The notes: generated from the sequence alone by a model not told the origin. A DNA stretch of 64,000 nucleotides from Candidatus Woesebacteria bacterium RBG_16_42_24 (GCA_001792115.1 MGFX01000006.1:18537-82536), one strand, 5' to 3'; positions 6,663 to 58,892 are shown, counted from the stretch's first letter. A program made the numbers and translations.

Positions 6663-6884
6663 ATGGCAGATGAAGCTAAAAAGAAAAAAGTAAAGTTGGA
6701 TGATCTTCCTGATCTTCTGACAGTCCGAGAGGTTGCAGATATATTGCGTGTTTCCCCATTAACCATCAAAAGGTGGGGCAAGCGCGGTAAGCTTCCCGCA
6801 ATCCGCATAAACTCCCGGGGAGATAGGCGCTACAAAAAAGAAGCCATCCTCTGGTTGTTAGGCATGCAAGAGAAGACTGAATAG
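6663..6884 (+). CDS. small helix-turn-helix DNA-binding protein (excisionase/MerR-like HTH_17 type)
   Basis: LTVREVADILRVSPLTIKRW is a classic Xis/MerR-type HTH; 73 aa; its 3' end is duplicated at 7757-7819. Confidence 0.55.
   Translation: MADEAKKKKVKLDDLPDLLTVREVADILRVSPLTIKRWGKRGKLPAIRINSRGDRRYKKEAILWLLGMQEKTE
6822..6884. repeat. direct repeat, copy 1 (3' end of the HTH gene); 47-nt identical core shared with 7757-7803
   Basis: gataggcgctacaaaaaagaagccatcctctggttgttaggcatgca is identical at 6822-6868 and 7757-7803; similarity continues to the gaatag stop. Confidence 0.85.
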
Positions 6885-6909
6885 ATCCAATTTGGTATAA
6901 TATGGGTGT

Positions 6910-7131
6910 ATGTCGATTGTAAAACACCTTCATAAATACTTCTGGGATATAAATCCCCGTAAGTCCAGGCCAAAGACCCATCCGAAGTTCTACATAACCA
7001 GAATATTGGAGCTTGGGGATGCGAAGGCCCTTACTTGGCTGAAAGGCGTCTTTGGAGCAAAAAAGGTGGCTAAAGTCGGAAATAAGGCCAAGCTGTCTTC
7101 GAAATCCAAGAACTTTTTGCCTTATGTTTGA
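6910..7131 (+). CDS. small partner protein of nucleotidyltransferase module 1 (putative antitoxin-like)
   Basis: 73-aa ORF; stop overlaps the downstream ATG (ATGTTTGA); shares an ILxLGDxxAxxW block with the small proteins at 29450-29707 and 29833-30123. Confidence 0.45.
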   Translation: MSIVKHLHKYFWDINPRKSRPKTHPKFYITRILELGDAKALTWLKGVFGAKKVAKVGNKAKLSSKSKNFLPYV

Positions 7132-7735
7132 GAAGGTCTTGCTCCCGGCTACCCTGGGACTGGTTAAAAAACTGACACCAGACTCGTTTCCCGAAGGTTC
7201 GTATCTGGGAGGGGGGACGGCCGTTGCTTTGCAGTTGGGCCACCGACGCTCCGCAGATTTGGACTTTTTCACCGCTTACGAATTCATCGAAAGCCAGTGG
7301 GAACAAAAACTGGCAAAGGAGCTGCGGTTTAAACTTCTAAAAAGAGACTGGCAAACTCTAATAGGAGCCTGCGGTGAGGTAAAAATATCCCTTTTTGGAT
7401 ATAAGTACCCCCTCATCGGCAAAAAAGAAAGGTTTTTTGATATGGAGGTTGCTTCGCTACCGGATCTTGCGGCGATGAAGCTGGATACCGTAATTTCAAG
7501 GGGGGCAAAGAGAGATTTAATCGATATCTACTTTCTGGCTCAAAAATTCGGCCTGGACAAACTTTTTGAATACTACGACAAGAAGTATAAAAATTTTCAG
7601 GAAAGGGAAATTATGATTAAAAAAGCCTTGGTTTACTTTGAGGAGGCCAAAGACGATGAAATGCCGGATATGCTTGTCAAGACGGATTGGGAAGAAATAA
7701 AAAGGTGGTTTAGAGAAAAAGTTTCTAAACCTTAG
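7124..7735 (+). CDS. minimal nucleotidyltransferase, AbiEii/AbiGii (DUF1814)-like, module 1
   Basis: GGTAVALQLGHRRSADLDF matches the GS-x9-13-DxD nucleotidyltransferase motif in GGTAL form; start placed at the internal ATG at 7124 by analogy with the paralogs (about 30 aa before GGT); the ORF-track start at 7052 is probably an over-extension. Confidence 0.6.
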   Translation: MFEKVLLPATLGLVKKLTPDSFPEGSYLGGGTAVALQLGHRRSADLDFFTAYEFIESQWEQKLAKELRFKLLKRDWQTLIGACGEVKISLFGYKYPLIGKKERFFDMEVASLPDLAAMKLDTVISRGAKRDLIDIYFLAQKFGLDKLFEYYDKKYKNFQEREIMIKKALVYFEEAKDDEMPDMLVKTDWEEIKRWFREKVSKP

Positions 7736-7756
7736 GCCACGCATCAATTCCTGCGG

Positions 7757-7819
7757 CGATAGGCGCTACAAAAAAGAAGCCATCCTCTGGTTGTTAGGCA
7801 TGCAGGAAAAAGTGGAATA
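7757..7819. repeat. direct repeat, copy 2 (duplicated 3' end of the HTH gene) downstream of module 1
   Basis: See copy 1; a third degenerate copy (atgcaggagaagagcgaatag) lies at 7870-7890. Confidence 0.85.
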
Positions 7820-7823
7820 GGCT

Positions 7824-7858
7824 TCTTGCCCTTCCGAAGCTCAAAGAGCGAAGGAGGG
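7824..7858. repeat. 35-nt fragment nearly identical to an internal segment of fmt (60735-60768)
   Basis: cttgcccttccgaagctcaaagagcgaaggagggt versus cttgcccttccgaagccgaaaggcgaaggagggt inside the fmt coding sequence. Confidence 0.7.
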
Positions 7859-8017
7859 TGGCTTCTAGGGATGCAGGAGAAGAGCGAATAGCCTACAGCT
7901 TTAAAAGAACAGGCTTTGCAAGGCACTTCAAAAGATGGATATAGATAGAACATAGGTAATAAATGGGTGGTTTCGGAGAATGAAGGGAATTTAAGTTCTA
8001 CAAACAGTATAAATCTT

Positions 8018-19902: not shown

Positions 19903-21312
19903 ATGAAGAATGTTTTAAAAATTATTTATCCGGAATCTTGGATATATGCCATAATTTTTTGTCTGTCGCTATTTGCGACCGATAATTTTTTTTTCCTGCT
20001 AATAGTAATTTCTTTACTTTTTTATCTCAAATTTACCCGCAGTTTATTTAATTCATTATGGTTTTTATTCATTTCGTCAATGCTTTCTTTGAGAACACTA
20101 CCTTTTGATATAAATTTTATTGCACCTATACTGAATATTAATGGAGATGGTAGCTGGTACTACTCGGACCTTATTTTTGTTTTAATTCTTGGTCTCACAC
20201 TTACTGGGTTCAATAAAAACAGAATAAAGGTCTTATTCAGCGGGACCTGGGGTATTAAAGCAGACTTTTTTTTGTTTTTATTTCTGGCTATAGCAGGCTA
20301 TTCGACCATCATCGCTTCAAATCCAACAATTTCCTTCTCATTCTACTTTTTATTAGCAAAATCGGTAATTCTTTATTTGGTATCCAAATTAGTATTTTTA
20401 GACCTAAATCTGGTCAAGAAAACCATGCAGATAGTAATTGTCTATGTGGTGATAAATTCTTTATTGATTATCACCCAATACTTGGTTAGAGGTCCTTTGG
20501 GCTTTGATTTTGAAGATGCGTTTATGCCTTTCGGAAAGTATGCAGAGAACTATCTATTCAGGCCCGGAGGTTTTAGCTCAGATCCCAATATCTCTGCGAG
20601 TTTTATAGTTGTTATTTTACCGGTAGCGGTAGTTATGTTTCTTCCACTTTTAAAAAAGGCCGCCGTATATTATTGGGGATTTATAGTATCGATTTTTTTG
20701 GCCCTAATATTTACGGCAAGTAGGGCCTCCTGGATAATAACCGCGGTTGCGATTTTGCCTTTTTTGATCTATTTAAAGTCTAATAATTTTATTTTTTTAC
20801 CGAAAAAACTTAAGGCCCTTTGGGTATTGGGATCTATCTCGCTCATTATTATAATAGGGCCGTTTATTTTTTCCAGGATTCTGTCTTTGGATCAGACATT
20901 CAGTCAGGTAGGAAGCGGCTATTATCGGATTCATCAGGCGGTAGCTGGATATCGGATAATGTTTAATAATCCATTCGGCGTAGGATTGGGGATGTTCCCC
21001 TATGAGGTCATGAAATCTGTTTCAGATGAAAATTCGCCAACTACTTTTGATTTACCTCATAATTTGTTTGTACAATTGGGGGCAGAAAGTGGCATTGCGG
21101 GTCTGATTATCTTTTTGGTTTTCTTGTATTTTTTATATAAAGACAAGTTTATAAATGGTATGCTAAAGCCAAACGTTTTTTCGGGTGCCATGATTATTTC
21201 CTTTGTGTCAATGAGTTTACTTATGCTCGCGTATCCTTGGTTATTGCACCCGAGAATCGGTTGGATATTTTGGCTCTTGGCGGGTTATTCTGGCAGATGG
21301 AAAAGCTACTAA
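19903..21312 (+). CDS. O-antigen ligase/polymerase-like polytopic membrane protein
   Basis: Ten or more transmembrane segments with a central TASRASWI loop block (Wzy_C-like). Confidence 0.55.
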   Translation: MKNVLKIIYPESWIYAIIFCLSLFATDNFFFLLIVISLLFYLKFTRSLFNSLWFLFISSMLSLRTLPFDINFIAPILNINGDGSWYYSDLIFVLILGLTLTGFNKNRIKVLFSGTWGIKADFFLFLFLAIAGYSTIIASNPTISFSFYFLLAKSVILYLVSKLVFLDLNLVKKTMQIVIVYVVINSLLIITQYLVRGPLGFDFEDAFMPFGKYAENYLFRPGGFSSDPNISASFIVVILPVAVVMFLPLLKKAAVYYWGFIVSIFLALIFTASRASWIITAVAILPFLIYLKSNNFIFLPKKLKALWVLGSISLIIIIGPFIFSRILSLDQTFSQVGSGYYRIHQAVAGYRIMFNNPFGVGLGMFPYEVMKSVSDENSPTTFDLPHNLFVQLGAESGIAGLIIFLVFLYFLYKDKFINGMLKPNVFSGAMIISFVSMSLLMLAYPWLLHPRIGWIFWLLAGYSGRWKSY

Positions 21313-26655: not shown

Positions 26656-27804
26656 TTGATAAAAAAATTTAGCCCGGAGAAAATTACAAACCTTCTAATA
26701 TTAATTCTATTCGGGACGCTTCTAATCTTTGGAGGATTGGGGATTAACGCCTTACTCGCAGCCCAAATTGGACTCGTATTGGGTTTTTTAATTATTCTCT
26801 GGGTTTATTTGAAAAACCATAAAATCGAATTCCCAAGGGGTAGCCTGCTCTACCTTATTTTTCTCTTCTTTTTTGCAGCAAGCGTTCTTTGGGCAGATCA
26901 AAAGAGTCTTATCTGGCAGAATTTTCTTTTATTTTTAGTTGGAGGAGTTTTTTGGCTGGGGTTTCATAACTTGGGCCAAAAGTTTAAGAAGATTTTTTTT
27001 TGGCTAGTAATTTTTTTGGGAGCAGTCTTTGGTATGCTTTTTTTGGCTGAGCAGGTACTTCCGGGAAATGCCTTAAAGCCCTATACACTCTATTTGCCGG
27101 TGGGTTTCCAGCGAAACCACAACCACCTGGGCGACCTTTGGGCGCTTACTCTTATTGCACTTACCTATCTTTTTGTCAAAGAAAGGAAATGGTGGAATCT
27201 GCCCCTAGGGGTTCTGGGGATTTATTTTTTGGGAGTATCCCTTTCCCGCTCTGCCTACGCCTCGTTACTGGTGGGACTAACTTATCTTTTTTATCAATTC
27301 GGGTGGCTAAAAAAATTCAAAAGTATCTTCCTCGCCCTTTTGGCAATCACCGCAGGCCTTTTTCTTTACGCGGGCAGCTTAAAGTCGGTACTTTCTTCGC
27401 GGCCTTATTTTGTACAGGCTATAAGGGGACTGTCTAAATATCCCTTCGGGGTCGGGGTGGGGAACTTTTCAGTCATTTCGACCGATCCACAAATAGCCGG
27501 GGAGGGTGCGAAACATTTTTCCTCTCTTACCCATAATTTAATTTTGGAAATAACCACCGGTTTGGGGATATTTGGGTTTGTCTTTATCGCCTGGCTTATC
27601 TTTATAGTCAAGGACTTACTTTCTTCTAAGAGGGGAGGCGAGACTGGCGTTTTTGAGGCTATATTTTTTGCCCTACTTGCCAATTTTATGTTTGATTATA
27701 CCTATGTTATTCCGACCATGCTTTGGTTGTGGTTTACCATGCTTGGGCTAGCTCAGGCAGGAAACCTATTCCCCGCCTTGACACAAAATAATAAAGAGCC
27801 GTAA
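26656..27804 (+). CDS. O-antigen ligase family membrane protein
   Basis: Polytopic; VSLSRSAYASLLVGL block (Wzy_C); paralog of 31619-32746; its last ~45 nt are repeated three more times downstream. Confidence 0.65.
   Translation: MIKKFSPEKITNLLILILFGTLLIFGGLGINALLAAQIGLVLGFLIILWVYLKNHKIEFPRGSLLYLIFLFFFAASVLWADQKSLIWQNFLLFLVGGVFWLGFHNLGQKFKKIFFWLVIFLGAVFGMLFLAEQVLPGNALKPYTLYLPVGFQRNHNHLGDLWALTLIALTYLFVKERKWWNLPLGVLGIYFLGVSLSRSAYASLLVGLTYLFYQFGWLKKFKSIFLALLAITAGLFLYAGSLKSVLSSRPYFVQAIRGLSKYPFGVGVGNFSVISTDPQIAGEGAKHFSSLTHNLILEITTGLGIFGFVFIAWLIFIVKDLLSSKRGGETGVFEAIFFALLANFMFDYTYVIPTMLWLWFTMLGLAQAGNLFPALTQNNKEP
27715..27761. repeat. att-like 47-nt sequence, copy 1 (native 3' end of the O-antigen-ligase gene)
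   Basis: accatgctttggttgtggtttaccatgcttgggctagctcaggcagg; three further copies at 28608, 29763 and 30770. Confidence 0.8.
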
Positions 27805-27805
27805 G

Positions 27806-28570
27806 ATGAATCATTCCCTCCCTAGCATGCGGAAACGTTACCTGCATAAATCGCAAACCGGTCTGGTTGGCTTTCTCCCCATTTTAGTTTTAGGAGTACT
27901 TACCATTTCTATAATCATGCTTTCTTCATATTTGAGTAGAGAGGGAGTGTCGTTTGATATTAGGGAACAAGCCGTGTATGAGCAGATCTGTCCCGGATCG
28001 GTGAGTGCTTATCCTAGCTCGTGTGTTGTTACAGAAGGAGCTACGGCACCCTGCCAAGATATTAAGATATCTTGGGATTTTCCCGGCTGTCAAAATGTGA
28101 CGGTAGATGGGACGGGGGTTGGTATTCCGGGTGGCCCTTTGGCCTATGGAAACTCAGGGTCGTTTTTCACTGACGTTTATCCTCCGGGGGCCGACTTTTA
28201 CTTTTACGCAAATGCGGGCTCCGACCAAATAAACCATTTAAGAGTAAATGCTAGACACCAATCCACCAGTAGTCCGGATGGGGAGATTAGAGTTAGCCCC
28301 CGACCTTGTCAAATTTGTTCGGGTGGAGGTTTGTCAGCAACTTGTACCGTGAGAGTAGAATGGAGCATCTGGAATGCTAAGAAGCCGAGGGTAATGATTA
28401 AACTTGCTGGTTTACCCAAAACAGAATGGGATAATAAGACGACTGGAGTTTCTGAGTATGAACTCAGAAATAATACTCTCTTCAAGTATGTTTGGTTTGG
28501 GGTGTACGACGGATATACATTATTGGACTCAGCAGACTCTTTTATAGAGTATGTGGGTTGTAATGGATAA
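27806..28570 (+). CDS. hypothetical membrane-anchored/secreted protein (first cassette)
   Basis: N-terminal transmembrane helix; Cys-containing extracytoplasmic domain; bounded by att-like copies 1 and 2. Confidence 0.45.
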   Translation: MNHSLPSMRKRYLHKSQTGLVGFLPILVLGVLTISIIMLSSYLSREGVSFDIREQAVYEQICPGSVSAYPSSCVVTEGATAPCQDIKISWDFPGCQNVTVDGTGVGIPGGPLAYGNSGSFFTDVYPPGADFYFYANAGSDQINHLRVNARHQSTSSPDGEIRVSPRPCQICSGGGLSATCTVRVEWSIWNAKKPRVMIKLAGLPKTEWDNKTTGVSEYELRNNTLFKYVWFGVYDGYTLLDSADSFIEYVGCNG

Positions 28571-28607
28571 ATAAGCACTCCAAAGGATACTGCTTACACA
28601 ATTTCCA

Positions 28608-28654
28608 ACCATGCTCTGGCTTTGGTTTACGAGTCTGGGATTATCCAGGCTCGG
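28608..28654. repeat. att-like sequence, copy 2
   Basis: accatgctctggctttggtttacgagtctgggattatccaggctcgg. Confidence 0.75.
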
Positions 28655-28745
28655 GTCAGACTTGGGTGAACCATGAGCTTGGGGCTGGGACAGGAAGACT
28701 AAAGCCACCTTTAAAGGCTGGTCCTTTATAGGAGCATTCAAGAAA

Positions 28746-28836
28746 ACCCCGATTTATTCGGAGATGGATTGAACGCTCATATGTCATCCTCGTTTAGACG
28801 AGGAAACCGCGGACTTAAGTCCGCGGAGGATGTCAT
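28746..28836. ncRNA. conserved multi-hairpin structured element, copy 1 (function unknown: small RNA, ssDNA recombination site or terminator)
   Basis: Conserved arms ggaGATGgATTGAACGCTcATATGTCATCCTC and GGAGGATGTCATA enclose three hairpins (ccga-tttat-tcgg; cctcgt-ttag-acgagg; ccgcggactt/aagtccgcgg) that differ from copy 2 by compensatory changes. Confidence 0.45.
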
Positions 28837-28845
28837 AAGGAACTA

Positions 28846-29466
28846 CTATTTCTGAAGACTTATTTCTGCCAAAAACTCCTTAATTTCACTGTCGTCCTTC
28901 TTATGGCCACTTAAATAATCTATCCTTTCCGAATAGTCTAGATCATCAAAATAAGACAGCTGTTCTCTGAAAAGTTTCTCATTAAACTCTTTTTTGAAAA
29001 TCTCCCTGGCTTTATTTATAACTTCATTTATAGTGTGTTTTTTAAATGCGAAAAATAAATCCACATAGTCCTTCCATTTGGCTCTTCTTCCCAGAGAATA
29101 GGCTTTCATAGAGGCGAGTGTAAGTATATCCGGCATGTTAATAAACTCTCCGAGCCTTTCTCTAAATTCAATCGTAAAGGGGAACTTTAAGAAGGTAAGT
29201 TTGACCGATGCCACAACGACCGTTAGTTCGTTCATTTCATCGACAAGAGTACTTTCTATGGGGTGAAGACCTCTTATTGAATTTGCTATTTTTTCATTAT
29301 TAATAGCCTCAAGGGAAGCCAAATCAAAATCAACCGACCTTCTATGTCCAATCTGGAGAGCCATTGCAGTGCCGCCAACTAATCCGAATTTATCCGAGAA
29401 CTTAGTGATAATCGGAAGAAGCAGCCTTTGTCCTTCCGATAAAACCTCTTCATGCATATTTTGCAA
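28846..29466 (-). CDS. minimal nucleotidyltransferase, AbiEii/DUF1814-like, module 2
   Basis: GGTAMALQIGHRRSVDFDL; paralog of 7124-7735 and 30101-30739 at about 35-40% identity. Confidence 0.6.
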   Translation of the reverse strand: MQNMHEEVLSEGQRLLLPIITKFSDKFGLVGGTAMALQIGHRRSVDFDLASLEAINNEKIANSIRGLHPIESTLVDEMNELTVVVASVKLTFLKFPFTIEFRERLGEFINMPDILTLASMKAYSLGRRAKWKDYVDLFFAFKKHTINEVINKAREIFKKEFNEKLFREQLSYFDDLDYSERIDYLSGHKKDDSEIKEFLAEISLQK

Positions 29467-29707
29467 AATAATTTTGGAAGTAATTTAGCGTACGCTTTTT
29501 TAAATTTACCCTTTTACCCCTCTTTATTTCTTCAAAAAGAGATTTCATTTTGGAAATACCCAAAACTTTCTCGGCTTCCATAACGTCACCCCAGTCGCCA
29601 TAGGACAGAATGTGTTCCAGGGCGCTTTTGTCAGATAAAGCCTTTTTGTCCTTGATATACCAGGCTAAATATGGCTTCCCCTCTAATATTTTTTGAAGCA
29701 TACTCAT
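29450..29707 (-). CDS. small partner protein of nucleotidyltransferase module 2
   Basis: 85 aa; overlaps the downstream nucleotidyltransferase by 17 nt; ILSYGDWGDV...LNYFQNYF matches the module-3 small protein VLNLGDREAV...LNFWQKIL. Confidence 0.45.
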   Translation of the reverse strand: MSMLQKILEGKPYLAWYIKDKKALSDKSALEHILSYGDWGDVMEAEKVLGISKMKSLFEEIKRGKRVNLKKRTLNYFQNYFAKYA

Positions 29708-29762
29708 ATATTATATCAACTAAGTGGGAAGCAAGCTTAAAGCGTAAGTGCCGAAAGCGATT

Positions 29763-29809
29763 ACAATGCTTTGGTTGTGGTTTGTCAGCTTGGGTCTTTC
29801 TCAGAGAAA
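29763..29809. repeat. att-like sequence, copy 3 (between divergent modules 2 and 3)
   Basis: acaatgctttggttgtggtttgtcagcttgggtctttctcagagaaa. Confidence 0.75.
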
Positions 29810-29832
29810 TGATTTAAGGTAAAATATGGTAT

Positions 29833-30123
29833 ATGAGCGTGCCTAAATTCTTACAACCCTATTTAGCTTCGTATGATTTGTCAAAGTTAGACAAAGATAG
29901 TAAGGCCGTGCGGGAAGAGATTATTACCCAGGTTCTTAATTTGGGTGACAGGGAAGCTGTCGGGTGGGTTTTTGATAATTATAATATGGACCAGGTTAGA
30001 GATGTTCTGAAAAAGCCAAAACGTGGTTTATGGTTTGAAGAATCTCTTAATTTTTGGCAAAAAATACTTGGCATTGAAGCCAAAGATTCACTAAATAAAG
30101 ATGCCATATTTACAAATCCTTAA
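29833..30123 (+). CDS. small partner protein of nucleotidyltransferase module 3
   Basis: 96 aa; overlaps the downstream nucleotidyltransferase by 23 nt. Confidence 0.45.
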   Translation: MSVPKFLQPYLASYDLSKLDKDSKAVREEIITQVLNLGDREAVGWVFDNYNMDQVRDVLKKPKRGLWFEESLNFWQKILGIEAKDSLNKDAIFTNP

Positions 30124-30739
30124 TGATAGGCAGTTGGACTTGATTAAGGGTCTGGACTTCCTTGGCGGAGAAGTTTACTTGGCGGGGGGCACCGGTTTGG
30201 CTCTACAGCTTGGTCATAGAACGTCGCTTGATTTTGATTTCTACTCCAAAATTCGTTTTGATCCTCAACTGCTGGCTGCTTCGTTTCAGGAAAAGTCTAA
30301 AGACTTAAAAATTAATAGTATTGTCAAAGATACGCTTATTCTTACCGTCGATGGTGTAAGTTTTTCTCTTTTTTATTACCCTTATAAGATGATAGGAAAG
30401 AAGGTTAAAGTGGAGAGTATAAATGTGGCTTCTATTCAGGATATTGCCGCAATGAAGCTGGTTGCGGTTGCCATGAGGGGAAAAAGAAGAGATTTTATTG
30501 ACATTTATTATCTATTGAAAAAATATTCTCTTAAAGACCTTTTGGGTTTTGTAAAGACAAAATATCCTTCGTTTGAAGAGATGATGGTTCTTAAGGGACT
30601 GATTTATTTTGAAGATGCAGAAGACGAAGACCTGGCGAGGGGGATAAAAGTTCTTGCTAAACACTTTTCCTGGGAAGACGCCAAGAAAAAAATTCTTCAA
30701 GAAGTTAAGCGCTACCAGCTTGCGATAATTAGAAAGTGA
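30101..30739 (+). CDS. minimal nucleotidyltransferase, AbiEii/DUF1814-like, module 3
   Basis: GGTGLALQLGHRTSLDFDF. Confidence 0.6.
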   Translation: MPYLQILNDRQLDLIKGLDFLGGEVYLAGGTGLALQLGHRTSLDFDFYSKIRFDPQLLAASFQEKSKDLKINSIVKDTLILTVDGVSFSLFYYPYKMIGKKVKVESINVASIQDIAAMKLVAVAMRGKRRDFIDIYYLLKKYSLKDLLGFVKTKYPSFEEMMVLKGLIYFEDAEDEDLARGIKVLAKHFSWEDAKKKILQEVKRYQLAIIRK

Positions 30740-30769
30740 TGGTTTTTTGACTGAACCTACTTTATCTAT

Positions 30770-30817
30770 ACGATGCTTTGGCTGTGGTTTACCATGCTTG
30801 GGGTTAGCTCAGGGTGG
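30770..30817. repeat. att-like sequence, copy 4
   Basis: acgatgctttggctgtggtttaccatgcttggggttagctcagggtgg. Confidence 0.75.
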
Positions 30818-30876
30818 AGTCAAACGCGAGTGAACAGTATAAGTATGGTATGTTTTTAGGAACTACGGTTAATATT

Positions 30877-31557
30877 TTATTCGCTGGGGAAATAGACTAT
30901 TTCTACGTTTGTTTTTTCACCATTTTTGGGAAGGAGATTCTGGCTGAAAACTATTTTTACGGTGCTATTGGGTTTTAAGTTCTCGAATTCGAAAGTTTTT
31001 AATTCTCCCCCTACGGTTGAGTAGATAGTCATTTTTTCTAGCTCTTCTTGTAAAAATGGGACCGCCTGCTCTTGTCCGGATGAGCTTACTAAAATTAACC
31101 CATTTGGGTAGGTGACATTACCAATTACAATTGGGACGGACAAGACTTCCTTTATTTTTCCCGTAAGCGTATAGTCAATCGATGCACTTTCGAGAAATTC
31201 TCCTTTGGATTGAAATAGATCCAGGTAACCAACGAGATATAAAGCCCCATCCTTGTCGAAAGTTGCTTGTCCCGAAAGACCAGTAGGCGTAATGGAAGAA
31301 ATCTTCCTGGGTGTTTCCGAGGTATTTGGTGTAGAAGGTTCTTGTGAGCGCCCCTTATAAAGCGCTATCCCTCCCCAGGAAAGAGCAGCAACTATAGCAA
31401 GCACGAGAATCCCAGTTATGATATACAGTCGATATCTATTTTTGAACTCTGCGTCGGACGTAAAAACTTTCGGCTCTGTTTCTGAAAGATTTGTATCCTG
31501 GCCTAGAGAGTTGTCGTTCACAATTTGAGTATAAACGATAATTTCAAGAGAGGACAA
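30877..31557 (-). CDS. hypothetical single-pass membrane protein
   Basis: Transmembrane helix YIITGILVLAIVAALSWGGIAL. Confidence 0.45.
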   Translation of the reverse strand: MSSLEIIVYTQIVNDNSLGQDTNLSETEPKVFTSDAEFKNRYRLYIITGILVLAIVAALSWGGIALYKGRSQEPSTPNTSETPRKISSITPTGLSGQATFDKDGALYLVGYLDLFQSKGEFLESASIDYTLTGKIKEVLSVPIVIGNVTYPNGLILVSSSGQEQAVPFLQEELEKMTIYSTVGGELKTFEFENLKPNSTVKIVFSQNLLPKNGEKTNVEIVYFPSE

Positions 31558-31618: not shown

Positions 31619-32746
31619 GTGTTGAAGATGTTAGGAAGCAATATAATAGATGTAATTATTATCTTTTTTTTGGGGACGCTTCTTTTTTTGGGTGGCCTGG
31701 GGATTGATACAAGTTCGGTGCAAATTCTGGGGATAAGCGTTGGTATTTTGCTATTGGTTTTGATCAGGTTTTGGAAAAAAAAGCTTGATATCCCCGAAGG
31801 CTTCTGGATTTATATCTTCTTTTTGGCAATACTCGCATTAAGTACTTTCTGGAGCGTTAATCTGGAAAGAACTCTTAAGTATTCTGCGTCATTTTTCACA
31901 GGCGGGCTTTTTTGGCTAATTTTTTTTAATATACAAGATCACATTAGAACCAGATTCGGGCACCTTTTAATTCTCTTGAGCTGCCTTTTTGGAGGATTTC
32001 TTATATTCCATTTGATTTCGGGGACCTTAGATCCAAACCCTTGGAGTATTTATTCTTGGACTACGCCAGAAAAAACACACAACCATATCGGTGATCTGTG
32101 GGCATTAGTTGGAATATTGGTTTTTTACCGATGGAGTCTAAAGCGCCCCCTAATTGATACTATATTTCTTGGCTTGACGGTTTTCTTTCTGGCTCTTTCA
32201 CAATCCCGCTCGGCTTATCTTGCGTTAGCAGTAGGGATAGGATTTATGGTCTTGAAACAAGGTTGGAATAAGACAAATAAGAGTATTATTATCACCCTAA
32301 CCATTCTGGTTGTAACCCTCTTTCTTTATTCCGGATTAACCAGGACAACTTTATTTTCAAGACCCTATTTCCTGGTTGGAACGCTCGGCCTAATTACCAG
32401 TCCATTCGGGGTCGGCCTGGGCAATTTTGGCGAGATCTCTAGTAGGGTTAGGGCGAGTTTTCCTTGGACAGCTAACTACATCACTTCATTTGCCCACAAT
32501 ATTTTATTAGAAGTATCTGCTGGAATTGGAATTTTAGGATTGGTTTTTATAACTTGGCTTTTAAGGATATCCAATTACCTTTTCGAAAACAAAGAAAATC
32601 TTCTATTTAAAGCATTATTTTTTGCACTACTTACCAATTTTATGTTCGATACTACTTATTTGATTCCTTCGATGGTGTGGTTATGGTTTGCGAGTTTGGG
32701 GTTGGCGCAAAATGAAAGAAGCAACAATAAATTATTCAATGAGTAA
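31619..32746 (+). CDS. O-antigen ligase family membrane protein (paralog of 26656-27804)
   Basis: Same architecture and C-terminal PSMVWLWFASLGLAQ as the paralog's PTMLWLWFTMLGLAQ. Confidence 0.65.
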   Translation: MLKMLGSNIIDVIIIFFLGTLLFLGGLGIDTSSVQILGISVGILLLVLIRFWKKKLDIPEGFWIYIFFLAILALSTFWSVNLERTLKYSASFFTGGLFWLIFFNIQDHIRTRFGHLLILLSCLFGGFLIFHLISGTLDPNPWSIYSWTTPEKTHNHIGDLWALVGILVFYRWSLKRPLIDTIFLGLTVFFLALSQSRSAYLALAVGIGFMVLKQGWNKTNKSIIITLTILVVTLFLYSGLTRTTLFSRPYFLVGTLGLITSPFGVGLGNFGEISSRVRASFPWTANYITSFAHNILLEVSAGIGILGLVFITWLLRISNYLFENKENLLFKALFFALLTNFMFDTTYLIPSMVWLWFASLGLAQNERSNNKLFNE

Positions 32747-34599: not shown

Positions 34600-35271
34600 A
34601 TGGAAGCGGGAGAGATAGTGACGAAAAGGATTTTTTTATTGTTTCTTGTAGTCGCGGTTTTAGCTCTTGCATTAGTTGCCGGGCTCTATGTTGGAAAAAG
34701 AACCACAAATAAGGTACCGGACTCCTCCGAGGAAAAAAATGAGCCAGTTCAGACGTGGGGAGAAGTTGAAATTCTTCCCGGGGGCAGAGACTTTGTAGAT
34801 TTGGAATTCTTTCAGCTATTTAGATCCTCCTCGGTTTTGTCGAGTTTAACCCACGACGCTGATATTCCCCAAGTAACCGAAATGGTGTGGCAATTTGATT
34901 TAGATGGAAAAGATTACAGTTTTAGGACATTGGGCGTACCCTGTGAGTTCCAGAGAGTGAACGATGGCAACTACTCCAAACTTGGTGCTGGCCTAGATAA
35001 ATTAACGACGGGAAAAACCTACAGATTGATGTTTGCCGGGCTAGAAAGCCCTTTAAAACGCTCTATGCTCGATAAACTGGATAAATACAACGATTTACTT
35101 CCCGGCTGCAGGGAGGTATGGGGTAGCCTGCGGGCAGATTCCCAGGACCCGGAACGCCTAAGGCGTTTTTTTACAAGCGGGCAAATAGAAGGCTTTGAAA
35201 TTGACGAAAATGGAGTTTTAGACCTGAGAAAAATAATTACCTTGATAGAATGGCGGAGCCTTAATGATTAA
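34600..35271 (+). CDS. membrane-anchored secreted protein, paralog of 33719-34549
   Basis: DYSFRTLGVPCEF and FFTSGQIEGFEIDENGVLDLRK blocks shared with the upstream gene. Confidence 0.5.
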   Translation: MEAGEIVTKRIFLLFLVVAVLALALVAGLYVGKRTTNKVPDSSEEKNEPVQTWGEVEILPGGRDFVDLEFFQLFRSSSVLSSLTHDADIPQVTEMVWQFDLDGKDYSFRTLGVPCEFQRVNDGNYSKLGAGLDKLTTGKTYRLMFAGLESPLKRSMLDKLDKYNDLLPGCREVWGSLRADSQDPERLRRFFTSGQIEGFEIDENGVLDLRKIITLIEWRSLND

Positions 35272-36889
35272 ATTAATTTATAAAAGCATACTGGGAATAA
35301 TGGCTTTTGTAATTCTAATATTTTTGTTTAATCAGACCGCACGGGCGGCGAATATTTGCGGTGATTATCTGACAATTGATGTTTTTGACTACGAATGGTG
35401 GGTTGGCCCGGGGAATTACCCATGGGGTGCCTGTCAAGACGTCCTCGTTTATTTTCCCACGGGAAGTCATGACGAGTCCTGCAGCCCAACAAACGGTGAT
35501 TGTAAAACCGATAGGGCTGTTTGTGCAGATGTAAGCCCTAGAAGGTGTACCCCTGGTGGCTACAACACATCCCCGTGTACATCTCTCGACAATGACTGGT
35601 GTGCATCTGCTATTGAAGAGGCACAATGTGAAGCGGGGACTCGCTATTTTTGTCAGGACAGCGATTCTACCTATATCGGTAGTGCCAGCTGTACTCCCCA
35701 AAGATATGATTGCTGGATTAATTGGGATCCTACTTCCACTCCCCCGGGTGGAGGTGGAACTGCAACTCCTATTCCCACTCCCTCGTGTACACTTTCCTTT
35801 AGCCCTTCTCCGGTTAATGTGACAATTGGTGATACTGCCAATGTAACTGCCAATGTAGTTCCATCAAACGGGACCGTGGACAGGGTGGATTTTGCAATAG
35901 CGAATCCGGCAATTGCTACGATTAATCCTAATACGGATAATATCTTCCCATATCGAACGGTGGTTAGGGGCGTGACACCAGGAAATACTGAATTAAGGGC
36001 AACTGCATATATGGGTGGGGTAGCAACCTGTGGGTATGGAACTCCGGTCGACCCTGCCGCCGACCCCGTCAACGTAACCAACCCCAACCCCTGGTGGCGA
36101 GTGTTCAATGGGGATGTAATTACCAATGCAAGCTTACGCTCTCTAATTCCCTCAACCTGCAGCTCCCCTGGTTGTAATCCTGCCTTTAGTCTTACCCCTC
36201 TCGGTGGCCAACCCGGACTTCCCTCATACGTAGGAGGTTTTGACTTTAGTGCGGGGATTGGAACGGGAACAGTATCCTCTACCGGCTGGATAGCGCAGGC
36301 CCGCTATGATGCCCAGAATCCATATAACTACGCCTTCTTTGAAAGGCAGGTTCCGGGGGACACGGTTAGAAACGTTATAGCAGACGTAAACAACCCGACC
36401 ACCCCCAATTATCTCAAAAACCAGGGTACCGACTCTCCCGATGGCTATAAATGGTACTTCAGGGAAGGGGATTTGACGATTGCACGCCCCGGGCCTCTTT
36501 TCAGGACAAAACTTAATAAAAGAAAGGTAGTTCTATTTGTTAGCGGAAACCTGACTATAAACGAATACATACAGTTAGATACGGGTGAAGGCTTTTTCAT
36601 GGCGATTGCGGGTGGGAATATTACGGTTAACTCCATTTCGGCACCCGCCAGTGATCCCGACATTGAAGGAATATATGTCACCGACGCTAACTTCATAAGT
36701 ACTGCTGATCCCGAGCAGCTCTCTGTCAGGGGAATGGTAGCAGCCTACGGCCAGGTTATCCTCGGGCGGGACTTGGCCGATGATTCACAAACCCCAGCCG
36801 AAACCTTTGAATATGCACCCGACCAGCTCCTTCTAATGCCTTTCTCTCTCAACCTCAAGCGCACCCGTTGGAAAGAAGTGGCGCCCTAA
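35264..36889 (+). CDS. secreted Cys-rich protein with a bacterial Ig-like (Big_2-type) domain
   Basis: Signal peptide; 20 or more Cys in the first ~170 aa; Big_2-like stretch VDFAIANPAIATINPNTDNIF...VTPGNTELRATAY. Confidence 0.5.
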   Translation: MIKLIYKSILGIMAFVILIFLFNQTARAANICGDYLTIDVFDYEWWVGPGNYPWGACQDVLVYFPTGSHDESCSPTNGDCKTDRAVCADVSPRRCTPGGYNTSPCTSLDNDWCASAIEEAQCEAGTRYFCQDSDSTYIGSASCTPQRYDCWINWDPTSTPPGGGGTATPIPTPSCTLSFSPSPVNVTIGDTANVTANVVPSNGTVDRVDFAIANPAIATINPNTDNIFPYRTVVRGVTPGNTELRATAYMGGVATCGYGTPVDPAADPVNVTNPNPWWRVFNGDVITNASLRSLIPSTCSSPGCNPAFSLTPLGGQPGLPSYVGGFDFSAGIGTGTVSSTGWIAQARYDAQNPYNYAFFERQVPGDTVRNVIADVNNPTTPNYLKNQGTDSPDGYKWYFREGDLTIARPGPLFRTKLNKRKVVLFVSGNLTINEYIQLDTGEGFFMAIAGGNITVNSISAPASDPDIEGIYVTDANFISTADPEQLSVRGMVAAYGQVILGRDLADDSQTPAETFEYAPDQLLLMPFSLNLKRTRWKEVAP

Positions 36890-36978
36890 GGAGAATTTCC
36901 ATTTTCCATTCGCCAATTACCAATTTCTAAGCTTGATTTCCTCATATGCTAGAATCACATAAGAATGATTGTTTATTT
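36864..36978. repeat. 115-bp direct repeat, copy 1: promoter with extended -10 (TGCTAGAAT), 5' UTR and ATG start
   Basis: About 95% identical to 37524-37638; spans ttgatttcctcatatgctagaatcacataagaATGattgtttattt. Confidence 0.85.
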
Positions 36979-37294
36979 GGAAAAACCCGCAACTTATGAT
37001 GAGATAAAAAGGGCGAGTGAAGAGTTTGGGACTTACATAAAAATTAGCGTTGATATTCTAAGAAAAGTAGCCGTAATAGGTGGAAAGCTCCACGCTGACG
37101 AGGAAAGACTTCTACTCGAAAAAGGATCAAAACAAGAAAATATTTGGGGAGGAGGATACGATATGAAATCTGGAAGAATTGACTCCCAGGCAGTAATTAA
37201 TATTAGACCAGGAAAGGGGAATGATAGTATGGAAATATTAGATCCCAATATTAGAAAAAACTTTTTGAGCCTTGCCAAAAAATTCCTGAAATGA
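36965..37294 (+). CDS. hypothetical protein
   Basis: 109 aa; first five codons (MIVYL) come from the duplicated block. Confidence 0.45.
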   Translation: MIVYLEKPATYDEIKRASEEFGTYIKISVDILRKVAVIGGKLHADEERLLLEKGSKQENIWGGGYDMKSGRIDSQAVINIRPGKGNDSMEILDPNIRKNFLSLAKKFLK

Positions 37295-37518
37295 CTAAAC
37301 AAGATAGATTAAATGCCGCCTCGGACCTTAAACGAATCGCTTATTGGTTGGCGGTGGGGGATAGAACCAAGGCCCGTTTAATGAACCAAATTTGGAAAAA
37401 GGATTATCGAAAATTTACTTCTATTAAAAACCCAGAGAAAGCCCTTAATAACAAAGTTAAACGACTGTCACTTGCAGAGGAACTTCTGTTTACAAGCCTG
37501 AAACTTCAGTATCAATAA
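37291..37518 (+). CDS. hypothetical small protein
   Basis: ATGA overlap with the upstream gene; 75 aa. Confidence 0.35.
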   Translation: MTKQDRLNAASDLKRIAYWLAVGDRTKARLMNQIWKKDYRKFTSIKNPEKALNNKVKRLSLAEELLFTSLKLQYQ

Positions 37519-37523
37519 TAAGT

Positions 37524-37638
37524 CCCGCTGGAAAGAAGTGGCCCCCTAAAGAGAATTTCCAATTTCCAATCGCCAATTACCAATTTCTAAGCTTGATTTC
37601 CTCATATGCTAGAATCACATAAGAATGATTGTTTATTT
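37524..37638. repeat. 115-bp direct repeat, copy 2 (promoter/5' UTR/start of the histidine phosphatase gene)
   Basis: See copy 1. Confidence 0.85.
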
Positions 37639-57461: not shown

Positions 57462-57600
57462 AAAAAATCAGCGGTTTTTGCTTGCCCTCCGTAACTTTAG
57501 TGAAGGAGGGGAGACCTCCGGCCTACCACTGACCGACACCCCTAAATCGAATAACAGCCTATTTTACTTCAAATTAGATAGAACCTCAAACCATACCCGT

Positions 57601-57630
57601 GTGCTCATGTATGATAAGATGATATATCAT
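57601..57630. repeat. 30-bp direct repeat, copy 1, containing the perfect palindrome ATGATATATCAT (operator-like)
   Basis: gtgctcatgtatgataagatgatatatcat; copy 2 at 58048-58076. Confidence 0.8.
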
Positions 57631-57658
57631 ACACCAGGCTGTGTTGGGTCGGGTTGAA

Positions 57659-58054
57659 TCAAAAGGGAGTTATTTTCTTGAGCAGGCTTCTTTTTGAAAG
57701 GTCTAAGTTCTTCAAGAAATCTTTTGTTAATTCCTTTGCGAAGGTTAACTTCAATTTTCTCATAAGCAAATTTTTGTCTCCCTCTGGGACCAATTTAGTT
57801 TGTAATCTAAACCGTGAGATTGTCTGTCTAGTGGTTTTTATTGTACCCGCGACTTCTTCTGGGCTATAGCCAAGTTCCAGTAGAAGAATTATTCCTGCCC
57901 TCTTTTTAAGCATCGCAATTTCAGTTTCAGATAGGAGAGTGTTGAGAATTTTAAATGTTTCGGAACCATCCAATTTATAAAATGCAGCTTTAATAAACTC
58001 TTGAAGTACTTTTTCGGTATGTGGGGCCAGTTTCTTCCGGGAAACGTGTGTCAT
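57659..58054 (-). CDS. TrpR/YerC-like helix-turn-helix DNA-binding protein
   Basis: LELGYSPEEVAGTIKTTRQTISRFR HTH; about 130 aa; start codon sits inside repeat copy 2. Confidence 0.45.
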   Translation of the reverse strand: MTHVSRKKLAPHTEKVLQEFIKAAFYKLDGSETFKILNTLLSETEIAMLKKRAGIILLLELGYSPEEVAGTIKTTRQTISRFRLQTKLVPEGDKNLLMRKLKLTFAKELTKDFLKNLDLSKRSLLKKITPF

Positions 58055-58076
58055 GTATGATAAGATGATATATCAT
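58048..58076. repeat. 30-bp direct repeat, copy 2, overlapping the HTH gene start and promoter region
   Basis: gtgtcatgtatgataagatgatatatcat. Confidence 0.8.
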
Positions 58077-58121
58077 CAACAGGCGAAGTCAATCATTAAT
58101 AGCTACCGTAAGGTACTACCT

Positions 58122-58870: not shown

Positions 58871-58892
58871 TTACGGGACAAGCACTCTGGTG

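What the first reader, a model, noticed from the sequence alone, without database searches (positions are those of the whole stretch)
27715..30817. Integron-like cassette array: four copies of a ~47-nt att-like sequence (the 3' end of an O-antigen-ligase gene), each bounding a different inserted cassette
The last ~47 nt of gene 26656-27804 (accatgctttggttgtggtttaccatgcttgggctagctcaggcagg) recur at 28608-28654, 29763-29809 and 30770-30817, at about 80-90% identity.
- Each recurrence closes a separate insert: a membrane-protein gene, the multi-hairpin element plus nucleotidyltransferase module 2 (inverted), and nucleotidyltransferase module 3.
- The inserts are unrelated or only distantly related to each other, whereas the boundary sequences are conserved.
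- That pattern fits repeated site-specific integration at one att site that regenerates the site each time. It does not fit tandem duplication.
- The target is the 3' end of a gene, as with many integrative elements.
- No integrase is visible in the window.
Basis: seen in the sequence. Interest (0 to 1): 0.85.

Follow-up and report, generated by a model that had tools for sequence, protein, structure and literature searches.

The report
Displaced gene-end cassette array
Downstream of a surface-glycan (Wzy_C-type) gene in a Woesebacteria (CPR) genome, three small gene cassettes are each bounded by a leftover copy of that gene's terminal coding segment. A related genome carries the cassettes in a different order, so this is a real integrase-less cassette array, but not an integron.

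Summary
The repeat is real. The segment encoding (T)MLWLWFxxLGLxQ, the last helix of Wzy_C-like gene 26656-27804, recurs in intergenic DNA at 28611, 29766 and 30773. A fifth copy lies inside the paralogous gene 31619-32746. None of 100 shuffles gave 5 matches.

Each extra copy is an in-frame former gene end with its own short tail and stop codon. The copies differ from the resident end mainly by synonymous changes.

A related genome (L012, ligase 77% aa identical) has a different order. There the "c3 tail + module 3" unit is fused directly to the ligase, the "c1 tail + 254-aa gene" unit comes second, and module 2 is absent. The module 3 tract is 96% identical between the two genomes, against 73-83% for the flanking DNA.

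Independent orphan ends occur after distant ligases in L032 and L067. Other lineages have the two ligase paralogs abutting with no insert.

I found no recombinase in the 64 kb window, no attC-like fold, and no shared exact core longer than 6 nt. AbiEii toxin-antitoxin modules elsewhere are flanked by duplications of other local sequences.

Best reading: serial gene-end displacement, where each cassette is motif + replacement tail with promoter + cargo. It is probably driven by homology-dependent recombination rather than a dedicated integrase. This is a new variant of Rhs/T6SS-type displacement arrays.

The parts
26656..27804 (+). lig1: 382-aa polytopic membrane protein of the Wzy_C (O-antigen ligase/polymerase-like) family. 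This is the 'host' gene of the array.
   Evidence: ORF. Pfam Wzy_C at E=3e-4, which is below the curated cut-off. 84 homologues were found, most with a precomputed PF04932 hit.
27691..27760 (+). Resident copy c1 of the repeated segment, encoding FDYTYVIPTMLWLWFTMLGLAQ. This is the most conserved stretch of the protein family.
   Evidence: W357, W359 and F360 are invariant in 36 homologues. C-termini across the family are listed.
27757..27805 (+). Tail T1: the last 15 codons of lig1 plus the stop. It contains a promoter-like TTGACA-18-TAAGAT (27778-27807) just before the cassette A gene.
   Evidence: The same tail and promoter-like site precede the 246-aa homologue in L012, where they follow an orphan copy instead of the gene.
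27806..28570 (+). Cassette A cargo: a 254-aa N-terminally anchored protein with no family match.
   Evidence: 64% aa identity to L012 2949-3698.
28602..28676 (+). Orphan gene end c2, reading in frame (F)PTMLWLWFTSLGLSRLGSDLGEP*. Its tail continues to about 28715 with homology to the c4-type tail.
   Evidence: Codon test: 13 nt differences but only 3 aa differences, P=0.0001.
28747..28840 (.). Cluster of three hairpins between cassette A/c2 and the 3' end of the inverted module 2. They are probably transcription terminators.
   Evidence: Fold z=-4.6 on the minus strand. One terminator-like site at 28763-28747. No Rfam family match. Unique in the window.
28846..29466 (-). Cassette B cargo: AbiEii-family nucleotidyltransferase NT2 (206 aa).
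   Evidence: Pfam PF08843 at E=8e-9. PADLOC AbiEii. The nearest non-self relative is 66% identical.
29450..29707 (-). Cassette B cargo: 85-aa partner gene AT2, the presumed antitoxin.
   Evidence: ORF overlapping NT2. The pair is conserved in L054 at 55% aa identity.
29761..29822 (+). Orphan gene end c3 plus tail T3, reading (I)TMLWLWFVSLGLSQRNDLR*. It has a promoter-like TTCTCA-16-TAAAAT at 29798-29825.
   Evidence: In L012 the same tail is the functional end of the ligase (P0002 ends ...CVLGLSQRNDLR).
29833..30123 (+). Cassette C cargo: 96-aa DUF6922-like partner AT3.
   Evidence: Pfam DUF6922 at E=3.8e-4, below the cut-off. 96.9% aa identity to L012.
30101..30739 (+). Cassette C cargo: AbiEii-family nucleotidyltransferase NT3 (212 aa).
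   Evidence: Pfam PF08843 at E=9e-13. PADLOC. 92.5% aa identity to L012 and 89% to L093.
30742..30859 (+). Orphan gene end c4 with a long upstream extension, a 1-nt insertion and tail T4b, reading FFD*TYFIYTMLWLWFTMLGVSSGWSQTRVNSISMVCF*. It is the terminal displaced end and is syntenic with the last orphan in L012.
30877..31557 (-). 226-aa anchored protein that forms the conserved right flank of the array.
   Evidence: 64% aa identity to L012 4274-4879, in the same position.
31619..32746 (+). lig2: paralogous Wzy_C-like gene (38% aa identity to lig1) with its own intact copy c5 at 32645-32710. It forms the right-hand boundary of the variable region.
   Evidence: Orthologues at 72-80% are found in L012, L030 and L053.

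Best explanation
The region between two paralogous Wzy_C-like genes is a cassette array built by serial gene-end displacement.

Each cassette consists of:
- a copy of the conserved segment that encodes the last transmembrane helix of the ligase (the motif);
- its own short replacement tail with a stop codon and a promoter-like site;
- one or two cargo genes.

The cargo here is a 254-aa surface-anchored protein and two AbiEii-type toxin-antitoxin modules.

When a cassette recombines into a motif copy, the ligase (or the preceding unit) keeps a complete reading frame. The former end is pushed downstream as an orphan. Orphans remain usable recombination sites, so cassettes can be added, lost, reordered and exchanged between lineages.

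Shown: the unit structure, the coding origin of the orphans, the polymorphism between genomes at the repeat boundaries, the recent exchange of the module 3 tract, and independent occurrences in distant lineages.

Inferred: recombination is homology-dependent (RecA-type) rather than catalysed by a dedicated integrase. Possible routes are single-crossover insertion of circularised DNA, unequal exchange between motif copies, and double crossovers that use the ligase and an orphan as arms. The extreme conservation of this codon stretch would make it a portable landing pad.
For: 1. Repeat significance and register.
2. Every orphan differs from the resident end mostly synonymously. The window copies c2, c3 and c4, L012 b and c, L032 and L067 each give P<=0.004. 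So the orphans are former functional ends, not decayed target duplications.
3. In L012 (ligase 77% aa identical) the T3 tail + module 3 is fused to the ligase, followed by motif + T1 tail + the 246-aa homologue, then motif + T4 tail. Module 2 and the hairpins are absent.
4. The tract 29789-30747 (T3 tail, AT3, NT3) is 96.1% identical to L012. By contrast lig1 is 83%, cassette A 75.5%, the downstream 3 kb 77%, and the right-hand motif 73%.
5. The module 3 core is also about 95% identical in L093, in an unrelated context. Both module ends diverge there, so the breakpoints lie inside the genes, as homologous recombination would give.
6. There are independent orphan ligase ends with other cargo: L032 (two unannotated genes) and L067 (a 44%-identical AbiEii module after a ligase only 39% identical).
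7. L030, L083 and L054 have the two ligase paralogs abutting with nothing between them.
8. None of the window's 56 ORFs of at least 150 aa has a recombinase family match, and a motif scan of 822 kb of related loci found none.
9. No attC-like fold is conserved across the copies.
10. The tails carry promoter-like sites directly upstream of the cargo.
Against: - A homologous arm of about 40 nt at 70-85% identity is very short for RecA.
- The origin of the first duplication at a site is not explained by homologous recombination alone.
- Only 64 kb of a contig at least 222 kb long was seen, so a trans-acting recombinase elsewhere cannot be excluded.
- The polymorphism rests on one close relative (L012, a single Logan contig) plus two distant lineages.
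- All near-identical population contigs are monomorphic, so there is no evidence of ongoing mobility.
- The high identity of module 3 could partly reflect stronger purifying selection. This is unlikely at 96% nt identity, because synonymous sites are also conserved.
Confidence: 0.55

Rival explanations
1. A recombinase encoded elsewhere in the genome, or on a helper element, recognises the motif as an att site and inserts or excises integrase-less cassettes. It could be a tyrosine or serine integrase, or host Xer. This would resemble integron cassettes, cis-mobilisable elements (CIMEs) or Xer-dependent dif modules.
For: - The architecture is what serial site-specific integration into a gene 3' end produces: direct repeats of the target end with the gene regenerated.
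- The cassettes are minimal and their content abuts the repeats within 0-30 nt in independent lineages (window, L012, L067). This argues for a defined unit of mobility.
- TGGTTT is invariant in all copies.
Against: - No recombinase was found in the window or within 10 kb of the arrays in L012, L032 and L067.
- The motif contains no inverted-arm core and no hairpin.
- The common exact core is only 6 nt.
- The end points of shared tracts differ between left and right and between genomes.
- The same module family is flanked elsewhere by duplications of unrelated sequences: an HTH gene 3' end, a ligase 5' end and two intergenic sites. That would need many specificities.
Confidence: 0.25
2. The cassettes, above all the DUF6922-AbiEii modules, insert by an undescribed mechanism that itself duplicates 25-115 nt of the target. 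Candidates are widely staggered breaks or template switching on incoming single-stranded DNA. The ligase end would be just one tolerated site.
For: - Nine of about 15 assessable AbiEii modules have flanking direct repeats of local sequence, at five or more different kinds of site.
- Non-TA cassettes in the window show the same pattern: a 115-nt repeat around the DUF5674 pair and a 42-nt repeat around a gene near tRNA-Trp.
Against: - The two copies of each repeat differ like alleles under purifying selection, not like an identical duplication followed by neutral decay of one copy.
- Tails travel with the cargo (T3 in L012 versus the window), which a simple target duplication does not predict.
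- No known transposition mechanism makes duplications of this length (from general knowledge).
Confidence: 0.12
3. There is no mobility. The orphans are deletion remnants of former tandem ligase paralogs, and the intervening genes are ordinary neighbours.
For: - Tandem ligase paralogs are common in this clade.
- The orphans have a coding-type divergence pattern.
Against: - All seven orphans in four lineages start within 0-36 nt upstream of the same motif, rather than at random points in a 1.1-kb gene.
- The order differs between the window and L012.
- T3 is a live gene end in one genome and an orphan in the other.
- The module 3 tract is 96% identical within a 75-83% background.
Confidence: 0.05
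4. The pattern is an assembly or strain-mixing artefact.
For: The data are metagenomic, and L012 is a single contig assembled with a short k-mer.
Against: - The same layout appears in independent assemblies from several samples and assemblers.
- The repeats share no exact stretch long enough to cause false joins.
- Independent cases exist in JGI and NCBI contigs.
Confidence: 0.01

Closest known systems
C-terminal displacement arrays of polymorphic toxin genes: Rhs and CdiA orphan tips, and T6SS effector-immunity arrays in Vibrio cholerae (PMC5361080; Jackson et al. 2009 as cited there)
   Same: - A full-length gene is followed by a series of displaced former 3' ends.
- Each displaced end keeps a short piece of the conserved region and is followed by its own cargo.
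- New units enter next to the gene.
- Arrays differ between strains.
- No integrase is involved. Homologous or homology-facilitated illegitimate recombination is proposed.
   Different: - Here the replaced tail is only 7-29 non-conserved codons with no toxin domain.
- The cargo consists of separate, self-contained genes (toxin-antitoxin pairs and a surface protein) with their own promoters.
- One cassette is inverted.
- The host gene is a glycan polymerase/ligase-like membrane protein.
- The organism is a CPR bacterium.
Integrons
   Same: Arrays of 0.7-1.2 kb cassettes separated by a recurring recombination sequence. New cassettes displace older ones away from the entry point. Toxin-antitoxin cassettes are typical cargo in chromosomal integrons (general knowledge).
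   Different: - No IntI.
- No attI/attC.
- The repeats are direct copies of a coding segment without a hairpin.
- The cassettes carry promoter-like sites and are not all co-oriented.
Tandem accretion of integrative elements at a gene 3' end, with integrase-less derivatives (CIMEs; PMC5704250). Also Dehalococcoides ssrA islands (PMC3146451) and tycheposon islands at tRNA genes (10.1101/2020.12.28.424599).
   Same: The target is a gene 3' end that the incoming DNA regenerates. Serial insertions leave a row of partial target copies. Some units lack an integrase.
   Different: Those systems have identifiable integrases in at least some units and longer identical att cores. Here every unit is 0.7-1.2 kb, no recombinase or remnant is detectable, and tract end points are not fixed.
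Xer-dependent modules (IMEX elements; pdif modules on Acinetobacter plasmids). Comparison from general knowledge.
   Same: Small modules that lack a recombinase, often toxin-antitoxin pairs, bounded by a recurring short site and moved by a host enzyme.
   Different: The repeat here has no 11-6-11 dif-like inverted-arm structure, and all copies are in direct orientation.

Membership tests
Integron | IntI-type tyrosine recombinase gene next to the array | tested here: not met
   No recombinase family appears among the window's 56 ORFs of at least 150 aa. No Xer/Int box I+II or serine-recombinase motif was found in the window or in 92 related loci (a heuristic scan).
Integron | attC sites: imperfect inverted repeats that fold as single-stranded hairpins | tested here: not met
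   ssDNA folds of the four copies on both strands gave z-scores of -0.9, -3.6, -0.8 and +0.8 on the + strand, with no common structure. The copies are in-frame coding remnants.
Integron | Cassettes mostly promoterless, co-oriented and read from a common promoter | tested here: not met
   Module 2 is inverted. Promoter-like sites lie in tails T1 and T3. These are consensus matches only.
Integron | Cassette content and order vary between relatives at the repeat boundaries | tested here: met
   Window order is A-B-C and L012 order is C-A.
Site-specific integrative elements in tandem / CIME | Units flanked by direct repeats consisting of the target gene's 3' end, with the gene regenerated | tested here: met
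Site-specific integrative elements in tandem / CIME | A cognate integrase, in one unit or elsewhere in the genome | tested here: inconclusive
   Absent from the 64 kb window and from the flanks of L012, L032 and L067. The rest of the genome was not available.
Site-specific integrative elements in tandem / CIME | Crossover at one fixed position within an identical core | tested here: inconclusive
   The longest exact string shared by all copies is TGGTTT. The tract shared with L012 starts at about +24 of the left motif and ends at the NT3 stop, not inside the right motif. Too few events are available to map.
Rhs/CdiA/T6SS-type displacement array | Full-length gene followed by orphan units that retain a fragment of the conserved 3' region | tested here: met
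Rhs/CdiA/T6SS-type displacement array | An orphan unit can be the live end of the gene in another strain | tested here: met
   T3 + module 3 is fused to the ligase in L012 but is an orphan in the window. The reverse holds for T1 + the 254-aa gene.
Rhs/CdiA/T6SS-type displacement array | The variable tip is a toxin domain of the main protein, followed by its immunity gene | tested here: not met
   The tails are 7-29 aa with no domain. The toxin and its partner are separate genes.
AbiE-type (type IV) toxin-antitoxin, for the cargo | AbiEii nucleotidyltransferase domain (PF08843) | tested here: met
   NT3 at E=9e-13 and NT2 at E=8e-9, both above the cut-off. PADLOC AbiEii models also match.
AbiE-type (type IV) toxin-antitoxin, for the cargo | AbiEi-type antitoxin partner | tested here: not met
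   The partners are 85-96 aa. AT3 is a weak DUF6922 match (below the cut-off), AT2 has no match, and there is no AbiEi hit. Toxicity and neutralisation were not tested.
Wzy_C (PF04932) O-antigen ligase/polymerase-like, for the host gene | Match to the Wzy_C domain above Pfam's gathering score | tested here: inconclusive
   lig1 scores 21 bits and lig2 29 bits against a cut-off of 31.7. Most homologues carry a precomputed PF04932 hit. The substrate is unknown.
Xer-dependent dif modules / IMEX | 28-nt dif-like site with two inverted 11-nt arms around a 6-nt spacer | tested here: not met
   No inverted repeat was found within the motif (and inspection).

The most novel reading that the evidence does not exclude
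Small self-contained cassettes in CPR/Microgenomates genomes are mobilised without any element-encoded recombinase. These are above all the very abundant DUF6922-AbiEii toxin-antitoxin pairs, but also surface-protein and DUF5674 cassettes. The process would leave 25-115-nt duplications of local sequence and preferentially use ultra-conserved gene termini (Wzy_C last helix, HTH_17 gene end, promoter plus first codons) as portable landing pads. If so, it is a recombinase-independent functional equivalent of the integron in bacteria with minimal genomes.
Probability: 0.25. Interest if true: 0.85.

Novelty: new variant of a known kind. Interest (0 to 1): 0.62.

Why it matters
CPR/Patescibacteria have tiny genomes, few recognisable mobile elements and no described cassette systems. 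A search of the held literature for Patescibacteria + integron + gene cassette returned only resistome surveys.

An array in which a conserved gene terminus serves as a reusable entry point would explain two things. It would show how defence and toxin-antitoxin genes and surface proteins are shuffled between lineages whose host genes are only 40-80% identical. It would also explain why the C-terminal tails of this Wzy_C family are so variable.

The finding gives annotators a simple signature: an in-frame orphan gene end with synonymous divergence. It also provides a concrete system for asking whether short conserved coding segments can replace dedicated att sites.

Tried and rejected
- Rfam, at gathering scores over the whole window and at E<=1 over 27600-31000: only tRNAs and two sub-threshold chance hits. 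The hairpin cluster 28747-28840 matches no family and is unique in the window.
- attC-like folding of the repeats: none.
- Viral contigs: 120 motif matches, all chance (none matches the ligase C-terminal profile). No NT3 relative was found, so there is no sign of a phage vehicle.
- Genome-contig scan with lig1: only one distant (36%) relative, uninformative.
- Search for orphan ligase 5' ends with an N-terminal profile: only frame-shifted or contig-end genes. The 62-nt 5' duplicate in L054 was found only by the flank alignment.
- Close relatives of module 2, to define cassette B elsewhere: none above 66% identity.
- Shared CTCTGGTTGT between the ligase motif and the HTH gene end as a possible common core: rejected. 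Other HTH-type flanks keep the peptide (LLGMQEK) but not the nucleotides.
- Base composition: the TA modules are slightly AT-richer (35-39% GC against 42-49%), which is not decisive.
- The repeat 34465/35187 is just the conserved C-terminus of two adjacent paralogs.

Full report
**Observation.** The window comes from Candidatus Woesebacteria bacterium RBG_19FT_COMBO_42_9 (the name attached to the identical protein). Gene 26656-27804 encodes a 382-aa polytopic protein of the Wzy_C (O-antigen ligase/polymerase-like) family.

The 18-mer ATGCTTTGGYTGTGGTTT occurs on the + strand at 27718 (inside the gene), 28611, 29766 and 30773. With 3 mismatches it also occurs at 32672, inside the 3' end of a paralogous gene, 31619-32746, which is 38% aa identical. 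The chance expectation is 0.15 matches, and no shuffle of 100 reached 5.

Ungapped identity of the 42-nt register to the gene copy is 69%, 76% and 76%. Copy c4 matches over 57-68 nt at 81%. The stated 80-90% is therefore somewhat high. The repeated piece is also not the very end of the gene: it lies 44-90 nt before the stop. All three extra copies are intergenic.

**What the repeats are.** Read in the frame of the gene, every copy encodes the same peptide followed by its own short tail and a stop codon:

| Copy | Reading |
|---|---|
| c1 | ..VIPTMLWLWFTMLGLAQAGNLFPALTQNNKEP* |
| c2 | FPTMLWLWFTSLGLSRLGSDLGEP* |
| c3 | ITMLWLWFVSLGLSQRNDLR* |
| c4 | FFD*TYFIYTMLWLWFTMLGVSSGW..* (1-nt insertion and an in-frame stop upstream) |

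FDxTYxIPTMLWLWFxxLGLxQ is the most conserved stretch of the whole family. Two Trp and one Phe are invariant in 36 homologues. What follows it is hypervariable in length and sequence across 84 homologues.

The copies differ from the resident end mainly at synonymous positions. For example, c1 versus c2 has 13 nt differences but only 3 of 14 codons changed, against a null mean of 8.2 (P=0.0001). The same holds for c3, c4 and the orphans found in other genomes. The orphans are therefore former functional gene ends that diverged under purifying selection. They are not decayed copies of a target duplication, and they are not chance similarity.

**Cargo.**

| Position | Content | Evidence |
|---|---|---|
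| Between c1 and c2 | 254-aa N-terminally anchored protein, no family | |
| Between c2 and c3 | Hairpin cluster (probably terminators), then an inverted AbiEii nucleotidyltransferase with an 85-aa partner | fold z=-4.6, no Rfam match; |
| Between c3 and c4 | DUF6922-like 96-aa gene plus a second AbiEii nucleotidyltransferase | |
| After c4 | 226-aa protein on the minus strand, then the ligase paralog | |

Tails T1 and T3 contain promoter-like hexamer pairs that end at the start codons of the cargo: TTGACA-18-TAAGAT at 27778-27807 and TTCTCA-16-TAAAAT at 29798-29825. These are consensus matches only.

**Comparative evidence.** Sixteen contigs carry the identical ligase, from several samples and assemblers. 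Every one of the ten places shown that reaches the region has the same layout. This rules out an artefact but gives no polymorphism.

The closest different genome is L012 (Logan SRR22388054; ligase 77% aa, lig2 80%). It has a different array:
- The ligase runs straight into the T3 tail (...CVLGLSQRNDLR*) and module 3.
- Next comes an orphan motif with the T1 tail, its promoter-like site and the 246-aa homologue of the 254-aa gene, plus a decayed second copy of that gene.
- Then comes an orphan with a T4-type tail, followed by the homologue of the 226-aa gene and lig2.
- Module 2 and the hairpins are absent.

So the unit is motif + tail + cargo. A given unit is the live end of the ligase in one genome and an orphan in the other.

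Nucleotide identity between the two genomes varies sharply by segment:

| Segment | nt identity |
|---|---|
| lig1 | 83% |
| Cassette A | 75.5% |
| 3 kb downstream | 77% |
| 29789-30747 (T3 tail through the NT3 stop; 37 mismatches in 959 nt) | 96.1% |
| Pre-motif + motif to the right, 30748-30813 | 73% |

The same module core is about 95% identical in a third genome, L093. There it lies next to a LeuRS gene between two fragments that resemble the end of an HTH gene, and both ends of the module diverge. These mosaic tracts, with end points in the motif, at the cargo/orphan junction or inside the genes, are what homologous recombination between diverged copies produces.

**Independent occurrences.** I built a profile of the ligase C-terminus and searched six-frame fragments of 80 metagenomic loci that encode family members. 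Orphan ends were found only in three places beyond the window lineage:
- L012.
- L032, where there is one orphan (E=4e-15) 2 kb after the ligase. Two unannotated genes lie between, and a ligase paralog follows.
- L067, where the orphan (E=3e-5) directly follows a DUF6922/AbiEii pair that is 44-45% identical to module 3. That pair sits after a ligase only 39% identical to lig1.

L052 and L095 also have a module-3-like pair immediately after a ligase. In L052 the contig ends; in L095 no orphan is detectable.

L030, L083 and L054 show the two ligase paralogs abutting with nothing between them. L030's lig2 is 73% identical to the window's, making it the nearest approximation to an empty site.

All seven orphans start 0-36 nt upstream of the motif. 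This argues against random deletion remnants of former paralogs.

**Is there a recombinase or an att structure?** Pfam scans of all 56 ORFs of at least 150 aa in the window, plus several smaller ones, found no integrase, transposase or resolvase. A motif scan for tyrosine-recombinase boxes and the serine-recombinase motif found nothing in the window or in 822 kb of related loci (a heuristic scan).

The repeats have no internal inverted arms and no conserved single-strand hairpin. The longest exact string common to all copies is TGGTTT. The motif was not found on viral contigs as a ligase-type fragment, and NT3 has no relatives there.

**A wider pattern.** The same window holds further small units bracketed by duplicated local sequence:
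- Module 1 (DUF6922 6910-7131 + AbiEii 7052-7735) follows an HTH_17/excisionase-family gene. The last 81 nt of that gene recur after the module at 86-90% identity, with 11 nt differences but only 2 aa changes, and partly once more.
- A DUF5674 gene plus a 75-aa gene lie between 115-nt repeats (95.7%). The repeat comprises the end of the upstream gene, a promoter-like region and the first five codons of the downstream His_Phos gene.
- A single gene near tRNA-Trp lies between 42-nt repeats.

In other genomes, AbiEii modules are flanked by a duplicated ligase 5' end (L054), by HTH-end fragments (L093) and by intergenic repeats of 60 and 29 nt (L223, L226). Six others show no flanking repeat.

A site-specific enzyme would need many specificities to explain this. 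A homology-dependent route does not, although it leaves unexplained how the first duplication arises at a new site (notebook, 'unexplained').

**Mechanism proposed.** Shown: the array is modular, the modules carry replacement gene ends, and the modules differ in order and presence between genomes at the motif. Tracts are exchanged between genomes.

Inferred (about 0.55): recombination is homology-dependent, using the ultra-conserved helix-coding segment and its displaced copies as arms. Once two motif copies exist, several events follow without a dedicated enzyme:
- unequal exchange between copies;
- excision and re-insertion of circles;
- double crossovers with incoming DNA, using the ligase on the left and an orphan on the right.

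These would add, delete, reorder and replace cassettes. The window order can be derived from the L012 order by one unequal exchange plus deletions between motif copies.

The tail after c2 is a diverged copy of the T4-type tail after c4. Cassettes B and C therefore sit between two allelic copies of a ~115-nt [motif + T4] segment, again as expected for recombination between arrays of different lineages.

The main rival (about 0.25) is a trans-acting recombinase encoded outside the window. Smaller weights go to an unknown insertion mechanism that makes long target duplications (0.12) and to static deletion remnants (0.05).

**Comparison with known systems.** Functionally the nearest are the C-terminal displacement arrays of Rhs/CdiA toxins and the T6SS effector-immunity arrays of Vibrio cholerae. 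In those, incoming units displace the old end downstream, orphans keep a piece of the conserved region, no integrase is known, and homology-facilitated recombination is invoked (PMC5361080).

The differences are that the replaced tail here is functionally trivial, the cargo is a set of independent genes with their own promoters, and the host gene and phylum are new.

It is not an integron: three of four defining features were tested and not met. It cannot be filed as a CIME/accretion array without an integrase. It lacks a dif-like site.

**Verdict.** Its integron/att-recombinase framing is not supported.

The finding is a new variant of a known kind, and of moderate to high interest. The reasons are that it occurs in CPR bacteria, that it involves an abundant toxin-antitoxin family, and that the broader duplication-flanked cassette pattern has no established mechanism.

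Noticed in passing
window 6663-7894: A second array of the same style. The last 81 nt (6804-6884) of an HTH_17/excisionase-family gene (6663-6884) recur at 7740-7820 (86-90%, mostly synonymous differences) and partly at 7859-7894. They bracket DUF6922 (6910-7131) + AbiEii (7052-7735), 'module 1'.
   Followed up: partly
window 36864-37638: 115-nt direct repeats (36864-36978 and 37524-37638, 95.7%) bracket a DUF5674 gene (36965-37294) and a 75-aa gene (37291-37518). The repeat holds the end of the 541-aa gene, a promoter-like region and the first five codons (MIVY), which are shared by the DUF5674 gene and the His_Phos_1 gene at 37625.
   Followed up: partly
window 57598-58084: 42-nt direct repeats (57598-57639 and 58045-58084, 93%) bracket one minus-strand gene of about 125 aa next to tRNA-Trp. 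The repeat contains a palindromic promoter-like stretch and the start codon.
   Followed up: no
window 58811-58850: A 40-nt partial copy (92.5%) of tRNA-Tyr (58892-58977) lies 92 nt downstream of it. Neither ARAGORN nor Rfam calls it a tRNA. It could be a remnant of integration at the tRNA.
   Followed up: partly
L054 7786-8927; L093 3225-4227; L223 3629-4723; L226 3119-4259: DUF6922/AbiEii modules in other Microgenomates genomes are flanked by duplications of unrelated local sequences: a ligase 5' end (62 nt), HTH-gene-end-like fragments, and intergenic repeats of 60 and 29 nt. In L223, L224 and L226 the modules sit next to a bAvd/PrgI/TraC/VirB4-like cluster.
   Followed up: partly
window 28747-28840: Three adjacent hairpins, including the perfect palindrome CCGCGGACTTAAGTCCGCGG, lie between the c2 orphan and the 3' end of inverted module 2. 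The fold z-score is -4.6, there is no Rfam match, and the cluster is unique in the window and absent from L012. They are probably terminators.
   Followed up: partly
window 29321-29376 and 30185-30240: A 56-nt inverted repeat (82%) is formed by the conserved GGTxLALQxGHRxSxDxDF-coding regions of the two oppositely oriented AbiEii genes. It is a potential substrate for inversion of the ~0.8-kb segment between them, which includes orphan c3.
   Followed up: no
window 19903-21312 and 62078-63880: Two further Wzy_C-domain genes of different subfamilies are present: a 469-aa protein and a 600-aa protein with C-terminal TPR repeats. The 64-kb window therefore holds four Wzy_C-type genes within a glycosyltransferase-rich region.
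   Followed up: no
L001 18609-20299 versus window 35264-36889: In one population contig, the 541-aa Big_2-domain secreted protein is called as 364-aa and 138-aa products instead. This is strain-level variation in that gene.
   Followed up: no
L224/L225 1-1389: A VirB4/TraG-like ATPase gene with intein (Intein_splicing, LAGLIDADG_3) hits lies next to an island of several toxin-antitoxin pairs (DUF4258-DUF2283, AbiEii, DUF433-DUF5615).
   Followed up: no
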